From assembly GCF_055900595.2 (NCBI RefSeq), contig NZ_CM148325.1: a DNA stretch of 64,000 bases, one strand, 5' to 3'. The notes under the pieces are model-generated. The model had not been told where the DNA came from. It saw only the letters and a list, made by a program, of their open reading frames with translations, and did no database searches. Of the stretch, positions 2,862 through 47,708 are shown one piece after another. The number at the start of each line of letters is the position of its first letter. Within the stretch, counting starts at the first letter, position 1. Position numbers and translations under genes: made by a program.

Positions 2862-2914
2862 TTTTAACAGCAATTTCTTATTCGCAATTTTCCGCACATT
2901 ATTTAAGGTTAACA

Positions 2915-3528: not shown

Positions 3529-3616
3529 GGATACCGTTACCATTTCCAGAGCAATAGTCACCAGCGTAATTTTCTGGCACAGTTCAGGGAACTGAAATTT
3601 TGGCTAAGGAGTAGCC

Positions 3617-4840
3617 ATGCTTTTTCCCTGTCGAAAACCTGAAGTACGTCTACTGAATAATACCGCTGCAGGCGTCATTTTTTCGGTGAAGTCCGGGAAA
3701 GGATTTCTGTGTCAGTGTGTGATTTACGATCCGCACCCTTATGGGCTTATCCGTTCGCTCTGCTGGCAGGATGTCCCGTTAATACGTTTCTGGTCCGAGG
3801 CTGGCTGCCCCACCTGTGCGGAATTTGTCTACAGCGGTTTTGCGGATGATGAACAGGGAGCCGCCCGGTTTTTGTCTGCTCTCGAAAACTGGAATCGCCC
3901 GTGGTCTGGCATGACGGACGCTTTTGCCGCGCTGACACCGCTGTTCTCATGCATGGCTGATGGCTATTATCTGCTCGAAGATCGTGAACTTTACCCGACG
4001 GATGGCAACGGGCATTTCTTTTGGGCGGCAACGGACCATAGCGCCAGTAATCCGGCGACCGTTGCCGTCTGGGATCCTGAATATTGCTATTTCAGTGACA
4101 CCGCCCCCTGTTTTCTTCTACCCGGCCAGCCGCCATCACATTTTAATCCTGAGCGTACGACGTTTTATCGCAATAAACCGGACGCCCCCGCTCTGGCCTG
4201 GTATCTCCCTGATTCCTATCTCTGCGTTCTGCTCGACGGACACCATAAAGCAACAGCCGCCGCGCTGGAAGGGCGACCGCTCAAAACACTGGTGCTCAGC
4301 ACGGCAACCCATTTTAATGATGAGCAACAAACCCTGGTATTTCCTGGCGGAGAATGTCTGCACAAAACAGAGCTGCTGTGTCACGTTCCCAAACTCACTG
4401 AATGGAAAACATTACCGCCCAACGCATGGGAGAGTTTCGGCCCTGATAAGCACATCAGCCCATCCGAAACCTGGTCAGAAGAGTTGCAGCAGAGCGTCAG
4501 CCGGTACCCTTCACTGGATCAAGCCTGGCAAATTGTTGAGGCCGGGAATTTGAGCGAAGCTCGTATTAAGCGCATGATCCAACAAGGTTTGGAGGGGGAT
4601 GAAAAGGCTGATGTTATTTTGCAGGCACTGTTTTCCACACACTCGCCGCTTTTTGTTGACTTTGCTCGATTCGTTATCAGCCATCCGGCATACGCCATTT
4701 ATCGCCCTCTCACCTTCCGGTTGATGGCGCAAAACCGAACGCCGCAAGCAGATGCCTTTTTTCTGGATTTTGCCATCAACGATGACGGCGAACGTCCGGA
4801 GTTGACGAAAATAATGGACGACTATTTCCGTATGCCTTAA
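3617..4840 (+). CDS. hypothetical 407-aa protein, Cys-rich N-terminal part, no family recognised
   Basis: long uninterrupted ORF with RBS (aaggag) upstream; stop codon directly abuts the cueR stop. Confidence 0.6.
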   Translation: MLFPCRKPEVRLLNNTAAGVIFSVKSGKGFLCQCVIYDPHPYGLIRSLCWQDVPLIRFWSEAGCPTCAEFVYSGFADDEQGAARFLSALENWNRPWSGMTDAFAALTPLFSCMADGYYLLEDRELYPTDGNGHFFWAATDHSASNPATVAVWDPEYCYFSDTAPCFLLPGQPPSHFNPERTTFYRNKPDAPALAWYLPDSYLCVLLDGHHKATAAALEGRPLKTLVLSTATHFNDEQQTLVFPGGECLHKTELLCHVPKLTEWKTLPPNAWESFGPDKHISPSETWSEELQQSVSRYPSLDQAWQIVEAGNLSEARIKRMIQQGLEGDEKADVILQALFSTHSPLFVDFARFVISHPAYAIYRPLTFRLMAQNRTPQADAFFLDFAINDDGERPELTKIMDDYFRMP

Positions 4841-23500: not shown

Positions 23501-26500
23501 TGTTGCCGTTTTGATTGGTGACCGAGGCGCTCACCGTTAAATCACCATTACCCAGCGCCTGAATATCCGCCGCCGGAACGCTCACGCTCCAGCTTAAACC
23601 GGCCTGCACGGTGGTGCTGTAAGTATTACCGCCCAGCGTAACGGTTACCGTGTCGCCAACGGCGGCTCCAGTCACCTGCCCGCTGATGGTTTGCGCAGCC
23701 CCCGCTTCGGCGGCGTTAATAATATCGTCGGTTGCCACCGGGTTAATAGTCACGCCGGGCAGCGCGCTGTCGACCAGCACGTTATGGCTGGCGGTGGCGC
23801 TGTTGCCGATATCGCTGGTCACCGCCGCCGTTACCGTATAGTTGGCCTGGCCCAGTGCGGTTACCGCCGATGCCGGAACGGTGACGCTCCAGTTACCGGA
23901 GGCGTCGGTCGTGGTGGTGTAATTTTGCCCGTTCAGCGTCACTGTGATGGCGGTATTAACAGGCTGATCGCTGGTGCCGGTAATTTGAACATCGGCCCCT
24001 TTTTCGCTGGCGTTAATCACATCATCGCCCGCAATGGTGTTAATGCCAATCACCGGCGCGGCGGTATCAACCGTGACGGTCAGTGACTGGCTACCCGTAT
24101 TTCCGGCGCGATCAGTCACTGAAACGTTGATCGGATAACTGCCGTCCACCAGTCCGCTGACAACGGAGGCCGGAACGCCCAGACTCCAGTTGCCGGAAGC
24201 ATCCACCACCGTGGTGTAATCCACATCATTCAGCGTAACGGTGACAATATCGCCCGCCTGCGCGCCGGTGACCGTGCCGCTGATGATTTGCGCCTGGGTA
24301 TGTTCCGGCGTGTTAATGACGTTATCGGTTGCCACCGGATTAATGGTCACCACCGGCGGCGTGGCATCGACCAGCGCCACCCGTGAGACGCTGGTCGGAT
24401 TACCCGCGACATCGTTCACGCTCGCGGTCACCGTGGCGTTGCCGTCAGCCAGTGCGCCAACGTTGGCGGCGGGAACGGTCACGCTCCAGGAGCCAACTGA
24501 CTGCACGACGCCCTGATAGGTCTGCCCATTAAGCGTGACGGTCACCGTCTGCCCCGGCTGAGCGTCGGTGGTGCCAGTGATTTGCAGATCCTGACCACTT
24601 TCGGCGGCGTTAATGATGTTATCAGCCGTCAGCGAGTCGATGCTTAAAGCCGGAGCCAGGCTGTCGACGGTAATGGTGCGGGAGGTGTCGCCTGTGTTAC
24701 CGCTGATATTAGTAACGGTCGCAGTGATTTCCGTCGCACCGTCTGCCTGGCTACTCACCGCGCTGGCGGGAACGGTCAGGCTCCAGCCGCCACCTGCCTG
24801 AACGGTAGTGGTAAAGGTCTGCCCGGCGAATTTCACTACTACGGTTTGCCCGGTTTCCACCAGCTGCGTGGTACCGGTCAGCGTCAATGGCGCGCCTTTT
24901 TCTGCGGCATTGATAATGTCATCGCCGGAGACGGTATTGATGGTAATAAGCACCGCGCCCGGATTAACCTCCACGTTGCGATCGATAGTAACCGGGTTCC
25001 CGGCGGGGTCCGTTGCGCTGGCATTAACCACTATCGTACCCGGCGTCAGTGCCTGTAGATCTGCCGCAGGCACGCCTACCTGCCAGTTGCCGTTGCTGTC
25101 GGTCACCCCCTGGTAGGTGTTGCCGCCGAGCAAAACAGTGACCACTCTTCCGGCGGACAAATTAGTACTGCTACCGGTGATAATCAGGTTTTGCTGCTGC
25201 TCAACGGCATTGATCACATCATCGCCCGCGATGGTGTCAATGCGCAGCCCCGGCAGCCCGGCGCTGATGGTGATATCAAGCGCACTGCTACCCGTATTGC
25301 CATGTACGGTAGTAACCGAAGCATTAATGGTTAACGCACCATCGCCCAGCGCCTGTAAATCTGCCGCCGGAACGTTCACGCTCCAGGTGAGATTGCTGCC
25401 CACCGTCGCCGTGTAAGTATTGCCGCCCAGTTCAATAGTGACCGTATCGCCCTGCGCGGCGCCCACGACGACGCCACTCAGGGTTTGATCTGCTCCCGCT
25501 TCGGCGTTGTTGACAATGTTGTCGCCCGCAAAGGTGTTGATGATCACCTGCGGCAGCACCGTATCGACCAGCAAATTGCTCTGCGCGGTGCCAGTGTTGC
25601 CGGTCACATCGGTGGCGCTGGCAGTGACGGTGTAATTGGTGTTCGCAAGATTAACAACATCACTCACCGGAACGCTCAGCGACCAGACGCCGCCGCTGAC
25701 CTGAGCGCTATACGTGACATTATTCAACGTCACGCTAACTGTACCGCCATCGGGCAAATTGCTGGTGCCGCTTAACGTTAGCGGCTGCTGAGACTCCAAC
25801 GCATTCAGTACGTTATCTCCGCTGATAGCATCTATCGCGACTTGCGGCGCGACGCCCGCCAGGGTGATGTTATGAGTCGCTGTACCGGTATTTCCGGCGG
25901 CATCGGTCACCGTGACGATAATATCGTTAGGGCCACGCGCTAGAGTGCGAGTTACCGCCGGATCAAGCGCCACATTCCAGCTACCGTCTGCCTGCACCAC
26001 GCCGGACAGAACTGTGGCGCCTAACTTGACGGTGACCGTGTCGCCAGGGGAAGCCCCACTGACCCGCCCGGAAATAATCTGCGCCACAATCTGTTCGGCG
26101 GTATTAAGAATATCGTCACCCGCAACGGTGTTAACGCTGACCACTGGCGCACCGGTGTCTACTGTGAAATTTACGCTGTTGCTGGTGGTGTTTCCTGCCC
26201 GGTCGCTGACGCTGGCATTTATGGCGTAGTCGCCATCTGCCAGCGCCTGCACTTCTGCGGCAGGCAGCGTCACTTGCCAGGTTCCGTCACTACCGACAGT
26301 TGCTGTGTGGCTTTTCCCGTTAACGGTCAGTGTTACGGTTTGCCCGGCTTCTGCGTTCGAAGTGCCGCTCACTACCAGCGAGGCATTATGTTCTGAGGCG
26401 CTGACAATGTTGTCCTGAGCGATGGTGTTGATTGCAAGTGTTGGCGGCTGGGTATCGACCGTTAGCAGCTGCGCTCCGGTGACCGTATTGCCCGTGGCAT

Positions 26501-37119: not shown

Positions 37120-37338
37120 ATGGCAAACCGCAAACAGCGCCGCGCTACTGCGGAGCATCACCACGTCCGCGCCCAAATCGACAAACGCCTTTTCCGCGCA
37201 TCACGCGTTGCACGCATCATGCACATCAACATGCTGCATGAACGCAGAGGGGCACTACCGAACACCTATATCGCCTCCGTTTTCAGCTATCTGGCGGACG
37301 ATCTCGCCGAGCTGCAACACCTCATTAACCAGCACTGA
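37120..37338 (+). CDS. hypothetical small protein (72 aa)
   Basis: ATG preceded by aaagagg RBS. Confidence 0.35.
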   Translation: MANRKQRRATAEHHHVRAQIDKRLFRASRVARIMHINMLHERRGALPNTYIASVFSYLADDLAELQHLINQH

Positions 37339-37410
37339 TAAACATCCCGAAGCCATCCTGCGCCCGTTCGCGGGAGGCTTCCACACATCTGTAGTCGGGA
37401 GGATTGCGCC

Positions 37411-37779
37411 ATGATTCTGGCTGACGATTTTCTGGAGTACCTGAACAACACCGAGCGCGACCTGTACGCGCGCGTTCTCACCCGTTACGAGAAATACAAA
37501 CTTTCACTGCCAGAGCATCAACTCCGCGAAGGCGATATCGACATTGAAGGGCGCTACATCGTCAGGCGCCGCATAGCGGGCTACGGCATCTGGCGTGTCA
37601 CCGGACTTGAGCATTCATTGCTGACCATCTGCCAGAGTCCGTCCGGCGTGATAACGGAGATCGTCGCCGATAGTCTGCGACTCACCCATCACAGCGCCAC
37701 CCCGGAAGAAACGCTGGCAGAAACCCAGCGTCTGTGTCGCGTCATTGCCAACGCCGCCCTCCGCGCAGACAGGAGGTAA
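37411..37779 (+). CDS. hypothetical protein (122 aa) immediately upstream of gene A
   Basis: ORF with RBS ggagg; ends 4 nt before A. Confidence 0.45.
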   Translation: MILADDFLEYLNNTERDLYARVLTRYEKYKLSLPEHQLREGDIDIEGRYIVRRRIAGYGIWRVTGLEHSLLTICQSPSGVITEIVADSLRLTHHSATPEETLAETQRLCRVIANAALRADRR

Positions 37780-37782
37780 GCG

Positions 37783-40272
37783 ATGGAGTTCGTCAGAGAC
37801 TGGCAAAAACCGCGCCCCGCTATCGGGCGCGAAGGCTTACCCGTACCTGAAACCGCACTGGATACCATCCTGAAGTGTTACCGCGCAGACGAAGAGCGCG
37901 CACTGCACGCTGAAGAGCAGGGTCATCCGCTTGCGGGCACAACCATCGGTAACGCGATCGACAAGTGGGAAGGCGCACAGGAGCGCCAGGAAGAGGCCAT
38001 CACGCTCACACAGGAAGCGAGAAGACACCCGCCCACCCTTATTGAGGAAACCCTCAAAGAGCTGGACACCCTGCCCAAGTGGTTGAGGCTGCCGCTGATT
38101 AAGCACCTGAACTTTTTAAGGCGCAAACAGGAGGACGAACAACAGAAAGGCAAGCGCGGCAAGGACACCCGCAAATATGAGCGCTTCCTGAAAAACGGCA
38201 TCCCCGCACGTCTTCGCCGTATTCGTGAGATTAACGCTCGCTTTGCACCGTTAAGTTTTCAGGCCGCTGCCATGCGCGAGAGTCTGGAAGAACTGATCAC
38301 ACTGCCGAACCTGAGCCGTGAACGCATCCAGAAAATAGCCGTACTGCTTGCCAGCGCCGTTAAAATGCATCTTGCCGACGCAATGGACAAGGCCCGCGAA
38401 ATAACAGGGAACGACAAAGACGACAACCTGAACAACTGGCTGATTGCCTACCAGTATATTGGTCGCCGTGTCCTGAAGCTGGGGATCACCCCACCATACT
38501 GGAGCGCCCTTGAACTCCGCCCCGACCGCAGAAGCCCCCCGGACGTGACACTGGTTCCGGGCGCTGTTTTGCGCCTGAACGACGCCGAATGGTGGAATAA
38601 AAAACTTCGCCAGATGCACGACGTCTGGCGTGAGGAACTTTTACGTGCAGCGGGCCTTGTATCCCGCCAGACCTCCGTTTATGTGAGCCGTGAAGCGCTG
38701 GCAGACTTCCGCGAAAAACAGGCCCGTACCCGCGATTTTCTCAAAGCGCACGACGTGGAGAACGAAGACGGCGAACGCATCAGTCTGGAAGATATCTACT
38801 ACGCCAGTACATCCAACCCGCATAACCGCCGCAACGAGATGATGGCGTGCGTTAAGGGAATGGAGCTTATCGCACAGGAACGCGGCGACGTGGCCTTCTT
38901 CGTCACGGTCACAGCCCCGTCTCGTTTTCACAGCGTCACCGACGCAGGCACGCTGAACCCGAAATACAAAGGCGCAACCGTAAAGGACGCCAGCGACTAT
39001 CTGGTTTATAACTTCTTCGCCTCCGCCCGCAAACTCATCAAAAAAGAGAAGCGGGGCTGGTACGGCATTCGCACCGTGGAGCCTCACCACGACGGCACGC
39101 CCCACTGGCACATGCTGGTATTCACAAGCCCTGAGAACGAAGAGCGCATCACGGAAATCATGTGCAATGCCGCCATTCGCGAAGACCGGGCAGAGCTGGG
39201 CGACGACATCACCCCGCGCTTCAAGTGCGAGAAGATAGATCCCGAAAAAGGCACGCCAACCAGCTACATCGCCACCTACATAGGCAAAGGCATTGACGCC
39301 GCTGCATTCGGCGACACGGATCCAAAAACAGGTAAACCGCCCGTTGACCACGAAAGCGGAAAACCTATGGCGGACACCGTGGAAAACGCCGTCGCCTGGG
39401 CGCGCCTGCATCGCATTCGCCAGTTCCAGTTCTTTGGCCTCCCTTCCCGTCAGGTGTGGCGTGAGTTCCGCCGCCTTGCCGGACAAATGGCACGCAACCC
39501 GAAGGGGCCGCAGGCACTGACCAACCCCAAAGCCGACGCCCTCCTTGTTGCAGCCGATACGGGGTGTTTTGCCAGCTACATCATGCATCAGGGCGGTGTG
39601 CTCATTCCCCGTAGTGAATATCTGGCCCGCACAGCCTACGTCACCGCAGAAGAGCCGAACAATTACAGCGAATTCCCCGAGCGCATTTACGGTATCCGCA
39701 TGCCGGAACTGGGGGAGGACTTCACGTTATGCACCCACCCGGAAGAGTGGAAAATCGTCAGAAAGGAACCGGAACCAGACAACCGCACGGGCGAGGGTTT
39801 TGACCTTCAGGGCGGCCCCGCCGCCCCTTGGACTCGTGGCAATAACTGTCACCCTGACGAAAAAACAACCAACAACAGCACACAAACAGAACAGTCAGAG
39901 TGGGCAAAACTGCCCCCCTTACCCCCATCGTCGGACGGTTTTGTGAGCTGGTTTAAGTCGCTTAAGAGGCCGGACAGGAAAAAACTACAAAGATTGCTCA
40001 AAAAACGCACCGAAGAGAGTCGCCAGAACGCCAGCGGCGGCACCGACACACCCACCGACACCATTAACCTGGGCGTTGTGCTGCCGGAACTGCCGGAAAT
40101 CGTGCAAGTCCGCCGCGATCTGGAAGCGCTGGGCGCGGACTTCCCCGAAGCAATGGCCCATTCCGTCTTTATGGGTGCCCGCGTTCGTCTGGGTGACGGT
40201 CGCACCGTTCACCGCGACGAGCAGACCGGGCGCATCACCGTCACCAGTCTGCAACCGGAGGCGAAACCATGA
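37783..40272 (+). CDS. A: P2 gpA-type rolling-circle replication initiator
   Basis: 829 aa; position after the early genes and length fit the P2/186 A protein; HxH-type motif region (HWHMLVF). Confidence 0.85.
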   Translation: MEFVRDWQKPRPAIGREGLPVPETALDTILKCYRADEERALHAEEQGHPLAGTTIGNAIDKWEGAQERQEEAITLTQEARRHPPTLIEETLKELDTLPKWLRLPLIKHLNFLRRKQEDEQQKGKRGKDTRKYERFLKNGIPARLRRIREINARFAPLSFQAAAMRESLEELITLPNLSRERIQKIAVLLASAVKMHLADAMDKAREITGNDKDDNLNNWLIAYQYIGRRVLKLGITPPYWSALELRPDRRSPPDVTLVPGAVLRLNDAEWWNKKLRQMHDVWREELLRAAGLVSRQTSVYVSREALADFREKQARTRDFLKAHDVENEDGERISLEDIYYASTSNPHNRRNEMMACVKGMELIAQERGDVAFFVTVTAPSRFHSVTDAGTLNPKYKGATVKDASDYLVYNFFASARKLIKKEKRGWYGIRTVEPHHDGTPHWHMLVFTSPENEERITEIMCNAAIREDRAELGDDITPRFKCEKIDPEKGTPTSYIATYIGKGIDAAAFGDTDPKTGKPPVDHESGKPMADTVENAVAWARLHRIRQFQFFGLPSRQVWREFRRLAGQMARNPKGPQALTNPKADALLVAADTGCFASYIMHQGGVLIPRSEYLARTAYVTAEEPNNYSEFPERIYGIRMPELGEDFTLCTHPEEWKIVRKEPEPDNRTGEGFDLQGGPAAPWTRGNNCHPDEKTTNNSTQTEQSEWAKLPPLPPSSDGFVSWFKSLKRPDRKKLQRLLKKRTEESRQNASGGTDTPTDTINLGVVLPELPEIVQVRRDLEALGADFPEAMAHSVFMGARVRLGDGRTVHRDEQTGRITVTSLQPEAKP

Positions 40273-40679
40273 ACCGTTATCATTGTGTACTGCCGCGCCA
40301 CTACTTCGGTCAGATTATGCGCTCGCGTATTCCGGCGGTCACGCTGCGAAACCTGAGCACGGTACCGCAGCCGGGCGATGAGCTGGAAATCGCCGTAGCA
40401 GGCCCTGACCGTTCAGCCAGCTGCGTGACCGCCGACGTGCTGAACGCCGTGCCCGTAGGTGGTGACTGGCTGGTTGCCATCCGCTTCCGCCAAGACCCGT
40501 TCGCACCTGAACCGCTCACCCCCGCAGGCCGCATCATGCAGAACTGGCGGGATGAACGCGCGAAGGCGAACTGCGAAAAACTGATTAACAGGATTGCCAC
40601 GACAAACCGACATGCCGCGCTGGCGCGCCGGATATACCCCGCAAAATCAACACAACCAACAGGAGTAAAAGGCCCATGA
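40269..40679 (+). CDS. hypothetical 136-aa protein translationally coupled to A (position of P2 orf91)
   Basis: ATGA overlap with A stop. Confidence 0.5.
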   Translation: MNRYHCVLPRHYFGQIMRSRIPAVTLRNLSTVPQPGDELEIAVAGPDRSASCVTADVLNAVPVGGDWLVAIRFRQDPFAPEPLTPAGRIMQNWRDERAKANCEKLINRIATTNRHAALARRIYPAKSTQPTGVKGP

Positions 40680-40822
40680 AAAGAATCGCCGGAACTGACT
40701 ACCAGGAGCTGCTTAAAGCGGTGGAAAACTACCGTTCAGCGCTGGTGTGGTGTGAGATTAAGCCCTGTGACCCGGGAGCAGTTAAGGATTGCAACCGGCG
40801 CGTGAGGACATTCAGCGCGTAA
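40676..40822 (+). CDS. hypothetical 48-aa Cys-containing peptide, coupled to upstream ORF
   Basis: hand translation MKRIAGTDYQELLKAVENYRSALVWCEIKPCDPGAVKDCNRRVRTFSA; ATGA overlap. Confidence 0.3.
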   Translation: MKRIAGTDYQELLKAVENYRSALVWCEIKPCDPGAVKDCNRRVRTFSA

Positions 40823-40937
40823 TTGGCTACCGCTATGTAGCAGCCATTATTGACCTTGTGAATGAACTGGAGGAAGCAAAAGAGCGCATCGCAGAACTGG
40901 AAACCCAGAATAACCCCAACCAGCAGGAGCAGAAGCC

Positions 40938-41519
40938 ATGAAAAAAAGAGACCTTAAAAAACACCTCCGTAGTCAGATTGAATATTTTGAAGATAAGGCT
41001 GCAAAAACAGGGCTTTCCGGTAAAGAGAACATGAACTTCAGGGCACACCTCCTGACGTGGAGAATACTTAATATCACGAGAGATGGACTTGAGCCGCTAG
41101 CCTACCTGATGGAAGATGGCGAGACCCTCATACAGGATCCCAATGTGGAAATGGAGAAGAAAGAGATGGACCTGCCGATAATCGGGCTGTTTGAGATCCC
41201 TGAACTAATAGGACGTTATGAACACGAAAACCGCCAGCTTGCCGCCTTTTTATCCGTGACAATCGAACGACTGGAAACCGTGAAACACGATATTCCGTTC
41301 GGTTTTGATGAGCGCACCGAGGGTGATTTGCTCAGCTTTCAGATTGCCCTGAACGTGCTCACCGCAGAGCCTTCTGCGTGGCTACGCCCGGAACGGCACC
41401 ACAACACGTTCGCATTTACCGTAATTCCCTACGATGCCGCACAGGAAGAGGATAACTTCGAGACCAGGCTTGTTCCCCTGTATCAGATTGCGGATTTCTA
41501 TACGTTGATTCGCTGGTAA
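40938..41519 (+). CDS. hypothetical 193-aa acidic protein (prophage cargo)
   Basis: ORF followed by a strong intrinsic terminator; no recognisable family. Confidence 0.55.
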   Translation: MKKRDLKKHLRSQIEYFEDKAAKTGLSGKENMNFRAHLLTWRILNITRDGLEPLAYLMEDGETLIQDPNVEMEKKEMDLPIIGLFEIPELIGRYEHENRQLAAFLSVTIERLETVKHDIPFGFDERTEGDLLSFQIALNVLTAEPSAWLRPERHHNTFAFTVIPYDAAQEEDNFETRLVPLYQIADFYTLIRW

Positions 41520-41534
41520 TCCCCCACAGTAAAA

Positions 41535-41557
41535 CAGCCCGACCGGGCTGTTTTTTT
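41535..41557 (+). terminator. rho-independent terminator
   Basis: cagcccgaccgggctg hairpin followed by T7. Confidence 0.6.
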
Positions 41558-41614
41558 ATCTGATATTTTTGATAACGTTGACCGGCTCATTAGCAAAAAA
41601 GCAAAGAGGAAAAC

Positions 41615-42001
41615 ATGAAAGCCCGTATCGGGATCATCCCGGAAAAAGCCCTGCGCCAGCACCTGATTGATATTGCCAGAGGGAAGCGAAAACCACAGCC
41701 CGACGAGCCAAAGGTATGGTTTTCATCCATCAATGCGGCAGGCCAGACGCTGAGCAATGAAAATATCGCCCTTCTGCGTCTTATGAATGAGGAGAAGCCG
41801 CAGACCATGACCGCACTTGCGGAGTTATCCGGCAGAAAACTGAGCAACCTGTCTGTAACCCTGAAAATGCTGAGCAGCTACGGTTTTGTCAGTCTGGAAA
41901 AGAAAGGGAATACTGTACACCCGAAAGCACTTTTTACCGATTTTGAAATCATCGTTGATCCGTCCGTGGGTTCAGTACATCGCGCCACCGCCCGGCCCTG
42001 A
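41615..42001 (+). CDS. standalone winged-helix DNA-binding protein (128 aa)
   Basis: C-terminal half TMTALAELSGRKLSNLSVTLKMLSSYGFVSLEKKG has wHTH character; RBS agaggaaaacATG; flanked by terminators on both sides. Confidence 0.5.
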   Translation: MKARIGIIPEKALRQHLIDIARGKRKPQPDEPKVWFSSINAAGQTLSNENIALLRLMNEEKPQTMTALAELSGRKLSNLSVTLKMLSSYGFVSLEKKGNTVHPKALFTDFEIIVDPSVGSVHRATARP

Positions 42002-42012
42002 AGTGCGCAATA

Positions 42013-42040
42013 AACAGCCCCGTTCGGGGCTGTTATTTAT
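42013..42040. terminator. bidirectional terminator between convergent genes
   Basis: cagccccgttcggggctg hairpin with T-rich flank. Confidence 0.55.
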
Positions 42041-42411
42041 TCCAGAATCAGCTGTTCAGGTGTGCAGCCGTACAGTCTGGCAAGGCGCTCAATATTTGCC
42101 CTGCGCGGGCGTTCTGTTCTTTCGAATTCGGACACGGTAGCCTGCCTGATACCCAGCGCATCCGCCACCTGCTTTTGCGTCATTCCGCGATAGATTCGCC
42201 ACGCCGCCTGCATGGTGCAGCCACGTTCCGAGAGGATGTTGACCACCTCGTTGGGATACAGCGTATCAGGCGATGCACTCGGTTCGTTCTGGACGTCCTC
42301 GTAGAGTTCGTCAAGGTCGCTGTCTCCTGCCAGTTTTTCAAACAACGCCACTGGCAGAATGACGGATACCCTGTTACCCGCACCGTCAGTAATAAACTGA
42401 ATCTGACTCAT
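42037..42411 (-). CDS. XRE-family HTH antitoxin (HigA-like)
   Basis: C-terminal MTQKQVADALGIRQATVSEFERTERPRRANIERLARLYGCTPEQL is a Cro/C1-type HTH; adjacent to RelE/ParE toxin gene. Confidence 0.7.
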   Translation of the reverse strand: MSQIQFITDGAGNRVSVILPVALFEKLAGDSDLDELYEDVQNEPSASPDTLYPNEVVNILSERGCTMQAAWRIYRGMTQKQVADALGIRQATVSEFERTERPRRANIERLARLYGCTPEQLILE

Positions 42412-42484
42412 TTGCCCCTCCTGCTAAACATCGGTTTATTTTTTAATTTGCTGCCGGTGATAAAAAACGGCGGGTCGCCCCGCC

Positions 42485-42757
42485 TTAGTATGTTGTCGAG
42501 GTTCTCCGCTGAATACGGAGGATCCTGATAACCACTATCTGCCCTCCCTCAATCGTGAACCTGACACGGTAATGATTTACCCTGAGTCTGTACTCCCCGC
42601 CCGAGTCAGTGAGCTTTTTAATATCCAGATTCTGGAACTTCGGATAGCCATAAAGCGCGTTAACTTTCTCGCGTAAGGATTTCTGATCCCTCGCTGGCAA
42701 AACCCGTAAATCTTTGATTGCCCGAGGGGTCCACATGATTTCAGTCGTCATAAACAC
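42485..42757 (-). CDS. RelE/ParE-family type II toxin
   Basis: ~90 aa with the ...EYRLRVNHYRVRFTIEGGQIVVIRILRIQRR core typical of RelE/ParE toxins. Confidence 0.7.
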   Translation of the reverse strand: MFMTTEIMWTPRAIKDLRVLPARDQKSLREKVNALYGYPKFQNLDIKKLTDSGGEYRLRVNHYRVRFTIEGGQIVVIRILRIQRRTSTTY

Positions 42758-43340
42758 ACCGGAAGCAAATTATTAAAGAGCCGTGCCCGCTGGCACACCT
42801 TAAATATAGGTTTTAACCCCTATATTGTCAAACAAAATCCCTATATCATGAAGTAAAAAAGCACCTCCCGCGACCTCCCTTTCCGGTGCACGAAAGTGCA
42901 CAAATTTGCACAATTTTTTTGAACGACTTTTTGCCCTTCCGGCCCGTGTGGCGTCTGGATCCGTCGGGGATCCGTGCGTGCACGAAAAAAGGCCTTTTTC
43001 TGCGCGCAGGTGACGGGGGAACAGCCCGCGTTTCAGGGGGTAAATAGCATTCCCTGAACGATGTTGCAGTGACACAACAGAATGGCTGTATTTCTCACGC
43101 TGAGCGTGAAAAAGACGTAAGGGCTTTTGATTTGATGGGGTGAAAGATAAGGCCGTCAAAATCGCACTGAGGCAGCGAGAATATGTCGTCAGAGTTGCGG
43201 GGTTGCGTAAGCATCCGCCCGGCGATGATGGCTACAGGGCTGGAGATGTTGTGAAATTATCTGAAGGAATAACCAGCTTGCAGGAGAACCCGGGCAAAGT
43301 CAGAATAGCGGCAGGCATCAACTCAAAAGAGGATAATGTC

Positions 43341-43844
43341 ATGAGCCACTTTAATGATTTATGCCAGATCAATCGTGAAGCTGAAGAAAAACGCGCTGAG
43401 GCAGCTCAAATTTTGCGGGATGAAGCGGCAAGGCTGATTGATTTCTATGAAGAATGGCTGGGGCTTCCATCCATGTACTGGGAAGACGATGATGGCGACC
43501 TGCACCGCTACGTGGAGACAGGCTTGCCATGTAAGACAGCGGCGGATTTTAGTCCTCTTTCAGTCCACAATATCGCATCTGCACCAGACAATATTTTCCG
43601 CATGGCCGTACGAACCTGGGTTAAGTCATCTGACAGCAGCTACCCGGTAAGCGTGGTTATTGCACTTGAATTATATTCAGTAGATGCGGAACGGGTGTCT
43701 CTGAGAGTCCGGGTGGAAGACGATATTTCTGTTCGCGTATTTATCAATAAACCCAGCGAAGAAGCCTGGGGCGATGTTGTTATGCACATGAAAAAGCACA
43801 TCGCTAATCACCTGAAAAAGCGAGCGCCATCAGCACTTCGTTAA
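43341..43844 (+). CDS. hypothetical 167-aa protein (prophage cargo); alternative GTG start at 43140
   Basis: ATG at 43341 with aaagagga RBS; followed by bidirectional terminator before Q. Confidence 0.5.
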   Translation: MSHFNDLCQINREAEEKRAEAAQILRDEAARLIDFYEEWLGLPSMYWEDDDGDLHRYVETGLPCKTAADFSPLSVHNIASAPDNIFRMAVRTWVKSSDSSYPVSVVIALELYSVDAERVSLRVRVEDDISVRVFINKPSEEAWGDVVMHMKKHIANHLKKRAPSALR

Positions 43845-43859
43845 GCAGAGCTGGAGAGT

Positions 43860-43884
43860 CGGGGCATAAATTTTTTATGCCCCG
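43860..43884. terminator. bidirectional terminator between the cargo gene and Q
   Basis: cggggcat-aaatttttt-atgccccg hairpin. Confidence 0.5.
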
Positions 43885-43910
43885 GCGAAGCAGCAGACAA
43901 GCGAAGCGCG

Positions 43911-44966
43911 TCAGGATATGGGCCGGGTGTCTAACAGTGCGTAAGGGTTAAAACGGATCACCTCTTCGCCCAGCCAGTCGTTGACGTGTTTCATTGCTTC
44001 CATGACGGGCATCAGTTCGTTAATGGCAAACACACGGGCTGCCTTCTCCACATCCCCGAATGACCCCTTCTCACCCGGCATGGCCCCCATCAGCTGAGGT
44101 GGCACGCGGTGCACAGCCAGCACGTCATCACGCGATGCGGCCTTGACGTTCATGAACTCATCCTTTGCGGTGATTTGCTGAAACGGCAAAATCTGTACGC
44201 CATCCTTACCACCTCCCGCCGCGTGGATGAGCAGATTTTTAAACGCCCCGCCACCACGCGCGCTTTGCAGTGTTTCCCGCAGTTTTTCCATGCTTTCACG
44301 GTCAACCTGCGCCGCACCGATGTAGACAATACAGCCCGCGTGTGAGCCGTTATCGTAGTAGAGCTTGCGGAAGATATCGGCGGAATGTGACAGGCTGGCA
44401 GACAGCAGGCCGCCCAGGTAATCCGGCATCCCGTAAATCTCCTGGTTGATATCAGGATTCATCAGGTGGCATATCGTCCCCTCACGAAAGCGGTACTCTT
44501 CCTGTCCTTCCTGTATATACCACCATGATTTCATATCGCTGCCACGTCGCATGTATTTCGCCAGCGCCCGGCGCAGGGCCAGCGGTTCGCCAAGCATGTT
44601 GCGCCGCAGCTCAAGACAGGCATTACCGAACACAAACCAGTCCATCGCCACCCCGGCGAACTCCTGGCGGGACAGCAGAGGATGTGGAATATAGCAGCCC
44701 AGCAGCACATTACGTTTGAAGCTGAGCGCCGACTGGTGCCAGGACGTCTGGCGGGCAGCCCGTGCCAGTCCGTACCAGTCAACGGGCGTTTCAAACCACC
44801 GCCCGTTGTCGGCGCAGTACATGCTGTCCAGCAGGTCGGCCCCTGACAGCCGGTAAGGTCCTTCAAACGTGAAGGCACTCAGTGTCGGGTCGCTTCGCAG
44901 GGAATCCGCAAGGCTGCCCTGCGCTGCGCGGGCGTTCGTACGTCGTTGTTTATTTTTTCTGCTCAT
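43911..44966 (-). CDS. Q: portal protein (P2 gpQ-like)
   Basis: 351 aa; position downstream of terminase P in the leftward P-Q operon. Confidence 0.85.
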   Translation of the reverse strand: MSRKNKQRRTNARAAQGSLADSLRSDPTLSAFTFEGPYRLSGADLLDSMYCADNGRWFETPVDWYGLARAARQTSWHQSALSFKRNVLLGCYIPHPLLSRQEFAGVAMDWFVFGNACLELRRNMLGEPLALRRALAKYMRRGSDMKSWWYIQEGQEEYRFREGTICHLMNPDINQEIYGMPDYLGGLLSASLSHSADIFRKLYYDNGSHAGCIVYIGAAQVDRESMEKLRETLQSARGGGAFKNLLIHAAGGGKDGVQILPFQQITAKDEFMNVKAASRDDVLAVHRVPPQLMGAMPGEKGSFGDVEKAARVFAINELMPVMEAMKHVNDWLGEEVIRFNPYALLDTRPIS

Positions 44967-46717
44967 CAGAACTCCGTAACACTGAAGGGGGCGGCATCAT
45001 GTTCACCGCCGACAGGTTCGTTGATAACGGCCAGCATGGTGGCCCATGCAAGATCGCCATGGCTTACGCCTCTTGCGCGATCTGTTTCGTAGGTGATAAA
45101 TCCGGCCTGCGTTTTTGTTTTGCGTACCGCGTTAAAGGCGCTCACCAGTTCGCGCTCGCTGCGGTCGTACTCCCACCGCCCGGCGCGCATGAGCTGCAGC
45201 ATCTTCAGAACCAGCGTGCGCTTTGATGACAGGGTGAAGGTGTAGGGAATGGCTGCCGGAAAAAAGCGCTTCACAATCTGATACACCGCATCCCCGTGAC
45301 CGCCGGTTACGTCAATACCGATATGCTCAACGTTATAGCGAAAGGTGAACTCTTCAATCACCTTCGCCTGCGCCTCAAACTCCAGCCCCTGCACCCGCCG
45401 CGTCTCCACGGTGCGAAAACGCCCGCCCGGTACGGCTGGCGGCACCACCACGACAACCGCCCCGCTGTCACCGTTCCCGCTACTGCCGTTGGCGTCGTAC
45501 CCAATCCACACAGGGCGGTTCCCCATCGGACGCGGTGCAAACGGCTTCCAGTCCGGCCACTCGTCGTATCCGTCAACACCGCAGCCAATCAGGATATTCA
45601 GGTTAAATGCCGATTCCCCTTCGCGAGCAAATTCACACATGTAGAGATTGCGGAACTCGTCTTCAGTGTTATTGCGCCGGATTTTGTCAATGTTGGTTAA
45701 CGTCCATCCCTGACTGACCACATCTTCCAGCGTCACAATTTGCCGCCAGATATAGTCAGGACAGATAAGGCCGTTATGAAGCGCATTCCAGCTCACATCA
45801 AAATGCTGACGTTTATGAGTACGAAGCCCTTCATTCCAGTGATCGCCGTTCCAGTATGCATACGCCTCATGTGTTTCACTTGATGGCGTGGAAAAATAGG
45901 TACACCGCAAACCATCCAGCGTTGCCATAGCAGCAGCCACCTTGCGCAGCTCTGCGAAACGCCCCGTCCAGAAAAACTCATCAAAATACAGATTCCCTGT
46001 GTACGCTTGCGCGGTGGCCGCAGAAGTGCCGAGAAAATGCAGCTCTGCACCGTTGGAGAGGATGACTTTATCGCCCCCTTTCAGTTCCACATCAACTTCA
46101 GATGCAGCCTTCTGAATAATGCTTTTAAACTGGAGCGCCTGACGACGAGACGCAGACAAAAAAATCTGGTTACGCTGGTAAGGTTGTGCCACATCGTCAC
46201 GCAGCGCCATCAGCAGCGCTTCCTGCGCAAAATACCAGGTCGCCCCAATCTGGCGGGATTTCAGGATCATCCTGTCAGTAATTCCGGCACGCTCACAGGC
46301 ACCGATAGCATCAAGCCATTTGCGCTGGTGTCCGGCCAGCCTGTCGGTAATTTTTTCCCGCAGCGCCGCGATCTGTTCCGGCGTGAAATGATTTTTGTGT
46401 TTTTTCGCCCGGCCTTTCTTTCCTGTTGCCGTCTCATCCGGCAGACCGTCATGCAGCTTTTTAAGCTGACGGGTCAGCAAATCAATTTCCTTAAAGTCCC
46501 CGCCTGTTTTATTCTGTTTTTCCGTGAGCTGAATGAGTCGCGCATCCATGGACTGCGTGACACGCTGAACCGGGGGCGTCTCATCCCACTGGTCGCGTTT
46601 TTTCCACGAATGGATCGTGTTCTGGTTGATACCCATAAGGCGGGAAATTTCCGCAACAGGGTAACCCTGCCAGTACAGCTGGCGTGCCCGCTGGCGAACA
46701 AATGTATCCTGAATCAT
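44966..46717 (-). CDS. P: terminase large (ATPase) subunit (P2 gpP-like)
   Basis: 583 aa; N-terminal HTH-like segment, ATPase and nuclease regions. Confidence 0.9.
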   Translation of the reverse strand: MIQDTFVRQRARQLYWQGYPVAEISRLMGINQNTIHSWKKRDQWDETPPVQRVTQSMDARLIQLTEKQNKTGGDFKEIDLLTRQLKKLHDGLPDETATGKKGRAKKHKNHFTPEQIAALREKITDRLAGHQRKWLDAIGACERAGITDRMILKSRQIGATWYFAQEALLMALRDDVAQPYQRNQIFLSASRRQALQFKSIIQKAASEVDVELKGGDKVILSNGAELHFLGTSAATAQAYTGNLYFDEFFWTGRFAELRKVAAAMATLDGLRCTYFSTPSSETHEAYAYWNGDHWNEGLRTHKRQHFDVSWNALHNGLICPDYIWRQIVTLEDVVSQGWTLTNIDKIRRNNTEDEFRNLYMCEFAREGESAFNLNILIGCGVDGYDEWPDWKPFAPRPMGNRPVWIGYDANGSSGNGDSGAVVVVVPPAVPGGRFRTVETRRVQGLEFEAQAKVIEEFTFRYNVEHIGIDVTGGHGDAVYQIVKRFFPAAIPYTFTLSSKRTLVLKMLQLMRAGRWEYDRSERELVSAFNAVRKTKTQAGFITYETDRARGVSHGDLAWATMLAVINEPVGGEHDAAPFSVTEF

Positions 46718-46782
46718 TTCTCCCCCTCATGTGATTCAGGCAGTTTACTCACCCCTTACAGGCCTCCTGCCATGCCCGGTGT

Positions 46783-46806
46783 TGTCGGCATTCGCTTACA
46801 ACAAAC
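46783..46806 (+). promoter_or_regulatory. Ogr-type late promoter element (TGT-N12-ACA dyad) in the divergent P/O control region
   Basis: TGTcggcattcgcttACA at 46783-46800, about 70 nt upstream of the O start. Confidence 0.45.
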
Positions 46807-46871
46807 GCACTTTGTCTGTCCCTGCCCCGTTTTGCCATCATGAGACAAACGATCATCACGAGGGCCCGACA

Positions 46872-47708
46872 ATGCCTGAACAGAAAAAAACATCCCGTAA
46901 AACATTCCGCGTGGCCGTTTCCGGTCCCACCGCAGACGGTCGCGAAATCAGTGCCGCAGATTTGCGCGCGGCGGCCAGTAACTTCAACCCTGAGATTTAC
47001 GGCGCACGCGTGAACGTGGAGCACTGGCTTTCACCGGTTCCGTCCAGTGAATTTTCCGCCATGGGTGATGTGACGGCACTGAGCACAGAAGAAATCACCG
47101 AAGGTCCGCTGGTCGGTCGTACTGCGCTGTATGCGGAAATCGAACCCACCGACCGCATGAAAAATCTGGTCTCCCGGGGTAAGAAAATTTACTCCAGTAT
47201 TGAGCTGGCACGAAATTTCACCCCTACGGGCACCCCGTATCTTATTGGCCTTGCCATGACAGACACCCCGGCAAGCATCGGCACGGAGCGTCTTCAGTTC
47301 GCCCTGCAGCAGCGCCGTTCGGTCATGACCTTCAATAATCAGCAGACGGAAGCACCGATGTTCTCTGACGCCATTGAGGCTGAAGTGATCGAACTGACGG
47401 AGCGCCGCAGCGAGGAAGGTGCGCAGTGGTTTAACCGCGTGATGAACATGATTGGGCGAGGACGCAGGGCTGACGACACCCGGTTCTCCCGCATTCATGA
47501 CGCCGTTGAGGGGATAGCCTCATCGCATGCCGACCTTCTCGACCGCTTCAGTGCACTGGAATCGCGCCATCAGGCAGACAGACAGAAAGTCGCCACCCTG
47601 TCCACTGAGCTGGCAGAGCTGAAAAACAGACTGCGCGGACTGGACGCTGATCAGCAAAGTCGTTTTACGGCAACCGGCGGGCAGTCCAGACAACTGGCTG
47701 ACTACTGA
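46872..47708 (+). CDS. O: capsid scaffolding protein (P2 gpO-like)
   Basis: start MPEQKKTS with RBS; position between P and N. Confidence 0.85.
   Translation: MPEQKKTSRKTFRVAVSGPTADGREISAADLRAAASNFNPEIYGARVNVEHWLSPVPSSEFSAMGDVTALSTEEITEGPLVGRTALYAEIEPTDRMKNLVSRGKKIYSSIELARNFTPTGTPYLIGLAMTDTPASIGTERLQFALQQRRSVMTFNNQQTEAPMFSDAIEAEVIELTERRSEEGAQWFNRVMNMIGRGRRADDTRFSRIHDAVEGIASSHADLLDRFSALESRHQADRQKVATLSTELAELKNRLRGLDADQQSRFTATGGQSRQLADY

What the first reader, a model, noticed from the sequence alone, without database searches (positions are those of the whole stretch)
41535..42040. Monocistronic winged-helix gene insulated by terminators on both sides
orf128 (41615-42001) has its own RBS, an upstream terminator at 41535-41557, and a bidirectional terminator right after its stop. 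The C-terminal half looks like a winged HTH while the N-terminal ~60 aa is unassigned. A self-contained DNA-binding unit in a prophage cargo region could be a regulator of the neighbouring cargo, or a single-gene exclusion factor.
Basis: partly seen in the sequence, partly recalled or inferred. Interest (0 to 1): 0.5.

Follow-up and report, generated by a model that had tools for sequence, protein, structure and literature searches.

The report
Orphan antitoxin gene, toxin replaced
This small DNA-binding gene is the surviving antitoxin-type half of a two-gene TumE/TumA toxin-antitoxin module in a P2-like prophage, whose toxin gene and promoter were overwritten by another cargo cassette; this is an ordinary kind of decay, not a new stand-alone regulator.

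Summary
The ORF (41615-42001, 128 aa), its Shine-Dalgarno sequence and both flanking hairpins are real. The gene is not a self-contained unit. It belongs to the HVO_A0114 winged-helix family (Pfam PF25212, 3e-16).

- **Intact pair in sister prophages.** In sister E. coli P2-like prophages the same gene follows a TumE/DUF6516 toxin gene, with a 4-bp ATGA overlap.
- **What happened here.** An 857-bp cassette (orf88, orf193, terminator; 40696-41552) replaced the tumEA promoter and the first ~103 codons of tumE. The "5' leader" of orf128 (41556-41618) is the last 20 codons of tumE.
- **No promoter.** No sigma-70-like promoter lies between the terminator and the ATG.
- **Rarity.** Among 5,426 complete E. 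coli genomes, tumA occurs at 16 places, 13 paired and 3 orphan.
- **Asymmetric decay.**
  - 37 of 37 viral TumE loci carry tumA.
  - 23 of 67 species loci found with tumA have a degraded tumE.
- **Neighbours not conserved.** None of the neighbouring cargo genes (RelE/HTH pair, orf234, orf193) is found next to tumA elsewhere.

Verdict: an orphan TumA-type antitoxin/autorepressor. It is probably poorly transcribed in lysogens. Its antitoxin role is inferred, not tested. It is a new member of a known kind, of low interest. Purifying selection on toxin-less tumA in other genera leaves room for a trans-acting role.

The parts
40696..41552 (+). 857-bp replacement cassette. It holds orf88 (40676-40941, frameshifted in the window), orf193 (40938-41519) and a terminator. 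It occupies the place of the tumEA promoter plus tumE codons 1-103 of sister prophages.
   Evidence: - blastn of the window against L001 is colinear over 37128-40695 (98.4%) and 41553-47000 (99.2%). Window 40696-41552 stands where L001 has 3569-3997.
- The cassette is found in only 3 of 5,426 complete E. coli genomes, always in this context.
- An orf193 homologue (52% identity) sits in the same hotspot of another P2-like prophage that has no tumA.
41531..41558 (+). Intrinsic terminator that closes the cassette, and probably the translationally coupled A-orf136-orf88-orf193 chain. The recombination junction lies in its U-tract.
   Evidence: It has a 10-bp stem, a 4-nt loop and a run of 7 U. MFE is -15.2 kcal/mol, z = -4.4. 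Homology to L001 resumes at 41553.
41556..41618 (+). Remnant of the tumE toxin gene: the last 20 codons plus the stop (LSDIFDNVDRLISKKAKRKT*). It carries the Shine-Dalgarno of orf128 (GAGGA, 41606-41610) and the ATGA stop/start overlap.
   Evidence: - It aligns to the L001 TumE C-terminus, LSDFFDNVDRLINEVTKGKA*.
- A weak match to the TumE HMM covers positions 103-124.
- None of the invariant His/Asp residues of the toxin family is retained.
41615..42001 (+). orf128: HVO_A0114-family winged-helix protein, the TumA-type partner (inferred antitoxin/autorepressor) of TumE. It is intact.
   Evidence: - Pfam PF25212 matches at 3e-16 and phrog_11214 at 7.7e-21.
- RefSeq names it 'HVO_A0114 family putative DNA-binding protein'.
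- It is 91% identical to the paired copy in L001.
- It keeps all 29 invariant family positions.
- The AF2 model (pLDDT 73.5) has beta-alpha-beta-alpha, then a wHTH, then a beta strand.
42013..42034 (.). Hairpin between the convergent stops of orf128 and the 124-aa XRE-HTH gene. It is a plausible bidirectional terminator with weak U-tracts, and it was inherited from the intact tumEA locus.
   Evidence: MFE is -17.0 (+) and -18.6 (-) kcal/mol. The hairpin is conserved in L001 at 4457-4480, which has a better U-tract.

Best explanation
**Identity (shown).** orf128 is the downstream gene of a two-gene TumE-TumA-type toxin-antitoxin module: a TumE/DUF6516 toxin followed by an HVO_A0114 winged-helix partner. 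P2-like prophages carry this module in the gpA-gpQ cargo hotspot.

**How the intact module is built (anatomy shown; activity, binding and autoregulation inferred).**
- One promoter upstream of tumE drives both genes. In the sister locus L001 it is TTGAAT-16-TGnTATGAT at 3610-3637.
- The promoter is overlapped by 16-nt direct repeats and TGAATAAA/TTTATTCA palindromes.
- tumA is translationally coupled to tumE through an ATGA overlap.
- The TumA dimer is inferred to bind and neutralise TumE. TumE family members inhibit translation (PMC10584680).
- TumA is also inferred to repress the operon through its wHTH.

**What happened in the window (shown).**
- Recombination in the hotspot replaced 429 bp, holding the promoter, the candidate operator and tumE codons 1-103.
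- The incoming 857-bp cassette carries orf88, orf193 and a strong terminator.
- What is left is an intact tumA with the last 20 tumE codons as its leader.

**Present state (inferred).**
- The gene has no promoter or operator of its own.
- It can be transcribed only by read-through of the terminator from the upstream chain of overlapping genes A-orf136-orf88-orf193.
- In P2 that chain belongs to the early operon, which is repressed in lysogens.
- It is therefore most likely a recent, weakly expressed orphan antitoxin with no cis partner. It could still bind a TumE toxin or a tumEA operator supplied in trans.
For: - **Family.** Pfam HVO_A0114 matches at 3e-16, and RefSeq uses the same name.
- **Sister prophages.** Strains TUM9803, LH50-c, CS5L and others have tumE (375 nt) overlapping the same gene by 4 bp. 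Their flanks are 98-99% identical to the window.
- **Breakpoints.** They lie at 40695/40696 and 41552/41553. The remnant translates to the TumE C-terminus.
- **Partner is TumE.**
  - 15 of 30 partner-family members match Pfam TumE PF20126, best 1.6e-9.
  - The AF2 model (pLDDT 85.6) has two helices and a beta-sheet, as described for TumE (PMC10584680).
  - AFDB50 hits are uncharacterised proteins plus one named DUF6516 family protein.
- **Pairing in genomes.** Of 67 assessable species loci, 44 have a full-length TumE directly upstream and 21 have truncated copies or remnants.
- **Pairing in viral contigs.** 37 of 37 TumE loci have TumA directly downstream, and 17 of 18 TumA loci have TumE.
- **Pairing in E. 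coli.** There are 13 paired places, 3 orphan tumA, and no tumE without tumA.
- **Independent orphaning.** In contig L115 a Doc/Phd cassette replaced the 5' part of tumE, again leaving ~23 tumE codons.
- **No promoter.** No sigma-70-like promoter lies upstream of orf128 in the window, while the L001 promoter and repeats lie in the deleted segment.
Against: - The antitoxin function of the HVO_A0114-type partner has not been shown experimentally. The six TumA proteins tested in PMC10584680 were encoded by short synthetic fragments of 289-388 bp, flanks included, too short to hold a 387-bp gene like orf128. They came from subcluster 1a, and the paper describes the partner as predominantly upstream in cluster 1. 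The paper calls TumA antitoxins diverse and unrelated.
- The E. coli TumE copy itself does not reach significance in Pfam or NCBIfam. Its membership is transitive, through homologues 44-64% identical.
- orf128 is fully intact and keeps all invariant residues.
- tumA in toxin-degraded lineages of other genera is under purifying selection as strong as in intact pairs, dN/dS 0.01-0.13. This argues that orphan copies can be functional rather than idle.
- The consensus promoter scan is crude. It cannot exclude a weak or non-sigma-70 promoter in the tumE remnant.
Confidence: 0.8

Rival explanations
1. The orphan is kept because it is useful in trans. It would act as an anti-addiction or immunity factor that neutralises TumE toxins, or represses tumEA operons, of co-resident or incoming P2-like phages and other elements. 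Alternatively it has a toxin-independent regulatory role.
For: - Strain GF60 carries both the orphan copy (100% identical to the window) and an intact tumE-tumA in a second, sister P2-like prophage.
- orf128 is intact with all invariant residues.
- Toxin-less tumA in Photorhabdus, Xenorhabdus and Serratia has dN/dS of 0.01-0.13, the same as intact pairs.
- Three Photorhabdus species share one internal tumE deletion yet keep tumA.
- Orphan antitoxins with counter-defence roles are documented for other TA families (PMC11257639, listed; abstract only read).
Against: - No recognisable promoter is present, and a strong terminator lies directly upstream.
- Two of the three E. coli genomes with the orphan have no tumE anywhere.
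- The orphan allele differs from GF60's paired allele at 11 residues, all within residues 1-67, so cross-neutralisation is not assured.
- The arrangement is very rare, 3 of 5,426 genomes, and looks recent.
- In the lineages where purifying selection is seen, the native promoter is retained. Here it is not.
Confidence: 0.15
2. One reading: orf128 is an autonomous transcription regulator of the neighbouring cargo, meaning the RelE/XRE-HTH pair and the 234-aa gene controlled from 42758-43140.
For: It is a wHTH protein. It lies adjacent to a divergent control region that holds a strong promoter-like site, 11 of 12 matches at 42831-42803 on the - strand.
Against: - The neighbours are never found near tumA homologues in 69 other loci.
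- In sister prophages the same neighbours coexist with the complete tumEA pair, so no special link to the orphan exists.
- The RelE/XRE pair has its own HTH protein for autoregulation.
- Operator-like repeats from the tumEA promoters have no match in 40-44 kb.
Confidence: 0.04
3. One reading: orf128 is a single-gene phage-exclusion or defence factor.
For: It lies in the P2 gpA-gpQ hotspot, which is enriched in anti-phage systems (PMC9122126).
Against: - No effector or enzymatic domain is present. The whole 128-aa protein is a wHTH plus a small beta-alpha element.
- PADLOC hits are only to the wHTH domains of CasR/CARF regulators, E 3e-5 to 9e-3.
- The family's constant partner is a toxin that is missing here.
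Confidence: 0.01

Closest known systems
TumE-TumA toxin-antitoxin superfamily (DUF6516/PF20126 toxin; Durairaj et al. 2023, PMC10584680)
   Same: - Sister prophages have a bicistronic, overlapping tumE-tumA pair.
- The partner family matches Pfam TumE.
- The partner's fold is two helices plus a beta-sheet.
- The orf128 family is a small DNA-binding protein, as predicted for TumA partners.
- Decay is asymmetric: the toxin is lost and the partner kept.
   Different: - The toxin is absent here except for 20 codons.
- The gene order is toxin first, whereas the paper reports DUF6516 mostly downstream of its partner.
- The HVO_A0114-type partner is not one of the six experimentally tested TumA proteins, so its antitoxin activity is inferred.
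HVO_A0114 family (Pfam PF25212) putative DNA-binding proteins
   Same: There is a significant profile match over residues 30-105 (3e-16), the same length class, and a wHTH core.
   Different: None found. It is a regular member. The family itself has no experimentally defined function in the literature searched.
ArsR/SmtB and MarR winged-helix repressors
   Same: The wHTH fold of residues ~46-105 superposes on ArsR, CzrA and SmtB. The best hit is 6j05 at E 7e-4, rmsd 2.4 A over 67 columns.
   Different: - The NCBIfam ArsR/SmtB match scores 23 bits against a cut-off of 55.
- The protein has no cysteine, so no ArsR-type thiolate site can form (read from the translation).
- It has a different N-terminal beta-alpha-beta element and no MarR-type dimerisation helices.
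Orphan antitoxins of type II TA systems
   Same: The antitoxin-type gene is intact while the toxin is deleted or degraded. The pattern recurs across lineages, in 23 of 67 loci.
   Different: Here the loss came from cassette replacement that also removed the promoter and candidate operator. The gene now sits behind a terminator, unlike most orphan copies in other genera, which keep the native promoter.

Membership tests
HVO_A0114 family (Pfam PF25212) | Significant match to the family profile | tested here: met
   PF25212 i-Evalue 3e-16, residues 30-105, model positions 4-79 of 84. All 120 listed homologues but one carry PF25212.
HVO_A0114 family (Pfam PF25212) | Winged helix-turn-helix fold | tested here: met
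   The AF2 model has helices 48-60, 65-72 and 76-89 and a wing at 92-105. Foldseek PDB top hits are ArsR/SmtB/CzrA wHTH proteins.
TumE-TumA TA system (antitoxin component) | Adjacent, co-oriented bicistronic partner of the TumE/DUF6516 family | tested here: not met
   In the window only the last 20 codons of tumE remain, at 41556-41618. The feature is met in sister prophages L001, L073 and L074. It is also met in 44 of 67 species loci and 37 of 37 viral TumE loci.
TumE-TumA TA system (antitoxin component) | The partner belongs to Pfam TumE (PF20126) and has its alpha+beta fold | tested here: met
   15 of 30 members of the partner alignment match PF20126 at E<=0.001, best 1.6e-9. The E. coli copy alone gives no hit, but a precomputed weak PF20126 hit is on record. 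AF2 pLDDT is 85.6, with two helices plus a beta-sheet.
TumE-TumA TA system (antitoxin component) | The toxin arrests growth and the partner neutralises it | not testable with these tools
   This was shown only for six other pairs of subcluster 1a in PMC10584680. There are no data for HVO_A0114-type partners. The only indirect support is asymmetric decay: tumE is never found without tumA, while tumA is often found without an intact tumE.
TumE-TumA TA system (antitoxin component) | Autoregulation through an operator in the operon promoter | not testable with these tools
   Candidate operators are direct repeats and palindromes over the -10 in L001 and ATGATTAGATCAT in Photorhabdus. The corresponding segment is deleted in the window, and no copy occurs in 40-44 kb.
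ArsR/SmtB metalloregulators | Score above the curated family cut-off, and metal-ligand residues | tested here: not met
   NF033788 scores 23 bits against a cut-off of 55. The protein contains no cysteine (sequence).
MarR family | Match to the MarR profile across the wHTH and dimerisation helices | tested here: not met
   Pfam MarR gives E 0.0034 over 48 residues only. NCBIfam TcaR scores 13 bits against a cut-off of 170.
Rho-independent terminator (upstream, 41531-41558) | Stable G+C-rich hairpin followed directly by a U-tract | tested here: met
   A 10-bp stem and a run of 7 U. MFE -15.2 kcal/mol, and 0 of 200 shuffles fold as well.
Rho-independent terminator (downstream, 42013-42034, bidirectional) | Stable hairpin with U-tracts on both strands | tested here: inconclusive
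   The hairpin is stable, at -17.0 and -18.6 kcal/mol. The tails are interrupted: UUAUUUAUU on the + strand and UUUAUUG on the - strand.
Known anti-phage defence systems (PADLOC) | Match to a defence-system protein model | tested here: not met
   Only weak hits to the wHTH domains of CasR/CARF regulators for orf128. There are none for TumE, orf193 or orf234.

The most novel reading that the evidence does not exclude
Toxin-less HVO_A0114/TumA genes are not debris. They would be selected trans-acting factors: immunity or anti-addiction against TumE toxins of competing P2-like phages, or regulators with a toxin-independent target.

The window's copy, together with the co-resident intact tumEA prophage in strain GF60, would be an example of one prophage disarming the TA module of a sibling.

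This reading is not excluded. Orphan tumA shows dN/dS of ~0.06 in other genera, and the window's copy is fully intact.
Probability: 0.15. Interest if true: 0.5.

Novelty: new member of a known kind. Interest (0 to 1): 0.25.

Why it matters
The result matters mainly for annotation. A gene that looks like an insulated stand-alone regulator is in fact the leftover half of a TA module. Its 'own' RBS and leader are toxin-gene remnants, and its 'upstream terminator' belongs to the cassette that destroyed the toxin.

It also documents three further points:
- TumE/HVO_A0114 pairs are cargo of the P2 gpA-gpQ hotspot.
- The toxin gene of this pair is repeatedly lost while the wHTH partner stays under purifying selection. 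This is indirect support for the still untested antitoxin role of the HVO_A0114 family.
- Hotspot cassette exchange can cut through operons.

None of this is surprising to a TA or phage specialist.

Tried and rejected
- **Phage GenBank records.** tblastn of orf128 found no match, so context came from E. coli genomes and IMG/VR instead.
- **NCBIfam and Pfam on the E. coli TumE copy.** Neither gave a hit. This was resolved by scanning 30 homologues individually.
- **Solved structures.** A sequence search gave only weak wHTH hits with E >= 0.007. Foldseek against the PDB aligns only the C-terminal ~70 residues well. No structural relative was found for the N-terminal beta-alpha-beta element.
- **Promoter in the tumE remnant.**
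  - The consensus scan found none.
  - Reading the sequence by eye, TTGATA and TTGACC could serve as -35 boxes, but no acceptable -10 follows.
- **Operator-like motifs in the window.** There are no hits in the cargo region. The ATGAT-N3-ATCAT hits all lie in the repetitive giant ORF or at 48170.
- **orf193 as a replacement toxin partner.** Rejected for three reasons:
  - A terminator lies between orf193 and orf128.
  - An orf193 homologue occurs in a P2 hotspot without tumA.
  - It has no Pfam, NCBIfam or PADLOC match.
- **Known RNA families in 40-44 kb.** Nothing reached the gathering threshold.
- **Post-orphaning drift.** The 11 amino-acid differences from the paired allele are not evidence of drift.
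  - Synonymous changes accompany them, 13 synonymous against 11 non-synonymous codons.
  - The alleles are mosaic. L072 has the same cassette with the L001-type tumA, and L074 is a third mosaic.
Full report
**1. What is at the coordinates**

- ORF 41615-42001 (+, ATG, 128 aa) exists.
- A GAGGA Shine-Dalgarno lies 5 nt upstream of the ATG.
- Upstream, 41531-41554 folds into a 10-bp hairpin followed by a run of 7 U. MFE is -15.2 kcal/mol, z = -4.4, and 0 of 200 shuffles fold as well.
- Downstream, 42013-42034 forms a 9-bp G+C-rich hairpin between the convergent stops of orf128 and a 124-aa HTH gene. MFE is -17.0 (+) and -18.6 (-) kcal/mol. Both U-tracts are interrupted.
- The physical observation therefore holds.
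- A promoter is missing. The consensus scan finds no sigma-70-like site on the + strand anywhere between the end of gene A (40272) and the ATG.

**2. Genomic setting**

The region is a P2-like prophage. Its genes in order are:
- replication endonuclease gpA (37783-40272);
- a conserved orf136;
- the cargo region;
- portal (43911-44966, - strand) and terminase (44966-46717, - strand).

The cargo region is the gpA-gpQ hotspot of P2-like phages, described as a reservoir of anti-phage systems (PMC9122126). G+C drops from ~0.60 to ~0.48-0.50 across 40700-43900.

**3. Identity of orf128**

- It matches Pfam HVO_A0114 (PF25212) at 3e-16 over residues 30-105. The MarR, HTH_20 and TrmB matches are only marginal.
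- It matches phrog_11214 (unknown function) at 7.7e-21.
- NCBIfam ArsR/SmtB scores 23 bits against a cut-off of 55.
- RefSeq calls the identical protein 'HVO_A0114 family putative DNA-binding protein'.
- The AF2 model (pLDDT 73.5) has these elements in order:
  - beta1 (2-7), alpha (10-21), beta (34-36), alpha (39-45);
  - a three-helix wHTH (48-60, 65-72, 76-89);
  - a beta wing (92-105) and a last strand (109-114).
- Foldseek against the PDB aligns only the wHTH part to ArsR/SmtB/CzrA proteins, best 6j05 at E 7e-4.
- The N-terminal 45 residues are a conserved part of the family, not an unassigned region.

**4. The key finding: the gene is half of an operon**

- megablast against 5,426 complete E. 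coli genomes found three genomes with the window's arrangement. Six more match only from window ~41553 rightward.
- In those six, the gene upstream of the orf128 orthologue is annotated 'DUF6516 family protein' or 'toxin-antitoxin system TumE family protein'.
- In TUM9803 (locus L001), tumE (3689-4063) overlaps the orf128 orthologue (4060-4446) by ATGA.
- blastn shows the window and L001 are colinear at 98.4% over 37128-40695 and at 99.2% over 41553-47000. In between, window 40696-41552 (857 bp) stands where L001 has 3569-3997 (429 bp).
- The 429 bp lost are the tumEA promoter region and the first ~103 codons of tumE.
- Window 41556-41618 translates, in the frame that ends in the ATGA overlap, to LSDIFDNVDRLISKKAKRKT*. 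This is the counterpart of the TumE C-terminus LSDFFDNVDRLINEVTKGKA*.
- Two conclusions follow. The 'own RBS' and 5' leader of orf128 are toxin-gene remnants. The 'upstream terminator' is the end of the incoming cassette, with the junction lying in its U-tract.

**5. Is the lost partner really a TumE toxin?**

- TumE-TumA was defined in PMC10584680. DUF6516 proteins are toxic in E. coli, are neutralised by the adjacent gene, and inhibit translation.
- The E. coli copy alone gives no Pfam or NCBIfam hit.
- However, 15 of 30 members of its family match Pfam TumE PF20126 at E<=0.001, best 1.6e-9. These members are 44-64% identical to the E. coli copy (alignment A3).
- A precomputed weak PF20126 hit is on record for an almost identical copy that differs at one residue.
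- The AF2 model (pLDDT 85.6) has two helices flanking a beta-sheet, matching the description in the paper.
- AFDB50 neighbours are uncharacterised proteins, with one named DUF6516 family protein among the listed hits.
- The family has invariant His/Asp positions: PHG.RY..T.H, DN.H and DH.H. None of them survives in the window.

**6. How constant is the pairing?**

- *Genomes, found with the orf128 family.* 69 species-representative loci were recovered, of which 67 could be assessed.
  - 44 have a full-length TumE ORF ending at or overlapping the tumA start.
  - 12 have truncated or frameshifted TumE.
  - 11 have no ORF of 50 aa or more, and 9 of those still show TumE remnants. Several are internal deletions that fuse the first ~20 codons to the last ~12-25.
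- *Viral contigs, both directions.* 37 of 37 loci found with TumE have a full HVO_A0114 ORF directly downstream. 17 of 18 loci found with TumA have TumE upstream.
- *E. coli.* tumA occurs at 16 places in 15 genomes. 13 are paired, 3 are orphan, and tumE never occurs without tumA.
- *Reading.* The decay is one-sided, which is what a toxin/antitoxin relationship predicts. The genome set was ascertained through tumA, so only the viral and E. coli counts are unbiased.
- *Independent event.* The one viral orphan (L115) arose separately. A cassette with Doc and Phd genes and a small ClpX-zinc-finger-like ORF replaces the 5' part of tumE. About 23 tumE codons remain.

**7. The replacement cassette**

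- It carries orf88, orf193 and the terminator.
- The genes A, orf136, orf88 and orf193 overlap one another by ATGA. The cassette therefore reads as an extension of the upstream operon, closed by the terminator.
- orf193 has no Pfam, NCBIfam or PADLOC match. It has only two clusters of relatives among 5.8 billion proteins.
- The 52%-identical relative sits in the same A-orf136-X-Q position of another P2-like prophage that lacks tumA. orf193 is therefore hotspot cargo of its own, not a new partner of orf128.
- The cassette occurs in 3 of 5,426 E. coli genomes, always in this context.

**8. State of the orphan**

- orf128 is intact and keeps all 29 invariant family positions.
- It differs from the paired L001 allele at 11 residues, all within residues 1-67.
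- This is not drift after orphaning.
  - 13 synonymous codon changes accompany the 11 non-synonymous ones.
  - The alleles are mosaic. Br_112_kylling (L072) has the same cassette and remnant but the L001-type tumA, and metagenomic L074 is a third mosaic paired with an intact tumE.
- In L001 the promoter is TTGAAT-16-TGnTATGAT. It is overlapped by two 16-nt direct repeats spaced 20 bp apart and by TGAATAAA/TTTATTCA palindromes.
- Photorhabdus loci have ATGATTAGATCAT at the equivalent place.
- These are candidate operators. They lie in the deleted segment, and no similar site occurs in the window's cargo region.
- From general P2 biology (my knowledge, not tested here), the A-containing early operon is repressed in lysogens. 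An orf128 that depends on read-through of a strong terminator should then be poorly expressed in a lysogen.

**9. Evidence that keeps a functional reading open**

- Pairwise dN/dS of tumA is 0.01-0.13 between lineages with degraded tumE. This equals the value for intact pairs, 0.02-0.09.
- Three Photorhabdus species share the same internal tumE deletion yet keep tumA and the promoter.
- Strain GF60 carries the orphan (100% identical to the window) and also a sister P2-like prophage with an intact tumEA.
- Against this, the other two orphan-bearing genomes have no tumE at all.

**10.

- Regulator of neighbouring cargo: none of RelE, XRE-HTH, orf234, orf193 or orf136 has a homologue within 3 kb of tumA in 69 other loci. 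Sister prophages carry the same neighbours together with the full tumEA pair.
- Single-gene exclusion factor: the protein has no effector domain, and PADLOC gives only weak wHTH-domain hits.

**11. Caveats**

- The antitoxin activity of HVO_A0114-type partners has not been tested. The TumA proteins validated in PMC10584680 were encoded by short synthetic fragments from subcluster 1a. The paper describes the partner as predominantly upstream in cluster 1 and the antitoxins as diverse and unrelated.
- No paper in the searchable library mentions HVO_A0114 or PF25212.
- The promoter scan is consensus-based only.
- The dN/dS figures are pairwise Nei-Gojobori estimates, not tree-based, and recombination is evident.

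**12. Verdict**

orf128 is an orphan TumA-type (HVO_A0114) antitoxin/autorepressor gene. A hotspot cassette overwrote its toxin gene and promoter. It is a new member of a known kind. Interest is low (0.25), with a modest chance (~0.15) that toxin-less tumA genes have a selected trans-acting role.

Noticed in passing
window 40676-40941 (about 40797): orf88 of the cassette is frameshifted in the window by a 1-nt deletion in a G run (CCGGGC becomes CCGGC), relative to all three complete E. coli genomes that carry the cassette. The window is therefore not identical to any of them. The translational coupling chain into orf193 is broken, unless this is a sequencing error.
   Followed up: partly
window 42037-42757 (- strand), promoter-like site 42831-42803, terminator-like site 42484-42469: The convergent neighbour is a toxin-first RelE-like (90 aa; TIGR02385 at 1e-4, phrog_1213 at 1e-14) plus XRE-HTH (124 aa, phrog_7241) pair, a HigBA-like arrangement. 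It has an 11-of-12 sigma-70 consensus promoter. A terminator-like hairpin sits between the two genes. The hotspot thus holds one apparently intact TA pair next to the orphan one.
   Followed up: partly
window 40938-41519 (orf193); L076 5001-5576: orf193 is nearly an ORFan. It has no Pfam, NCBIfam or PADLOC match and only two protein clusters of relatives in 5.8 billion sequences. Both sit in the gpA-gpQ hotspot of P2-like prophages. Its function is unknown.
   Followed up: partly
loci L003-L071 (tumA homologues in 69 species); L031, L040, L051 at 2830-3010: Loss of tumE is recurrent: 23 of 67 loci have truncations, frameshifts or internal deletions. tumA is retained with dN/dS of 0.01-0.13. 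P. luminescens, P. akhurstii and P. thracensis share one internal deletion that fuses ~18 N-terminal to ~12 C-terminal tumE codons, with the promoter kept.
   Followed up: partly
L115 821-2504 (IMGVR_UViG_2757320580_000004): This is an independent orphaning of tumA in another P2-like contig. The 5' part of tumE is replaced by a Doc toxin, a Phd-like antitoxin and a 123-aa ORF. The C-terminal part of that ORF matches the N-terminal zinc-binding domain of ClpX (1e-13). A stable hairpin precedes the ~23-codon tumE remnant.
   Followed up: partly
C-termini of tumA homologues (loci L003-L070; window 41978-41998): 56 of 70 family members end in -Ala-Ala and 6 more in -Val-Ala. This resembles a C-terminal degron of the ssrA/ClpX type (from memory, untested). 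The E. coli P2-hotspot alleles, including the window, end in -ATARP instead.
   Followed up: no
E. coli GF60 NZ_CP172185.1: 3197952-3198338 and 4365293-4366050 (L073): One strain carries two sister P2-like prophages. One has the orphan tumA (identical to the window) and the other has an intact tumE-tumA pair.
   Followed up: partly
window 8583-27560 (- strand): A giant ORF of 6,325 aa with internal repeats. The motif TTGATCACATCAT recurs at 15328, 19519 and 25210. It lies upstream of the prophage and is unrelated to the finding.
   Followed up: no
window 43140-43844: The 234-aa ORF (GTG start; annotated as 197-213 aa in RefSeq) matches phrog_5091 (unknown function, 3.5e-52). Its DNA is the most widespread part of this hotspot, contributing to partial matches in over 1,100 E. 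coli genomes.
   Followed up: no
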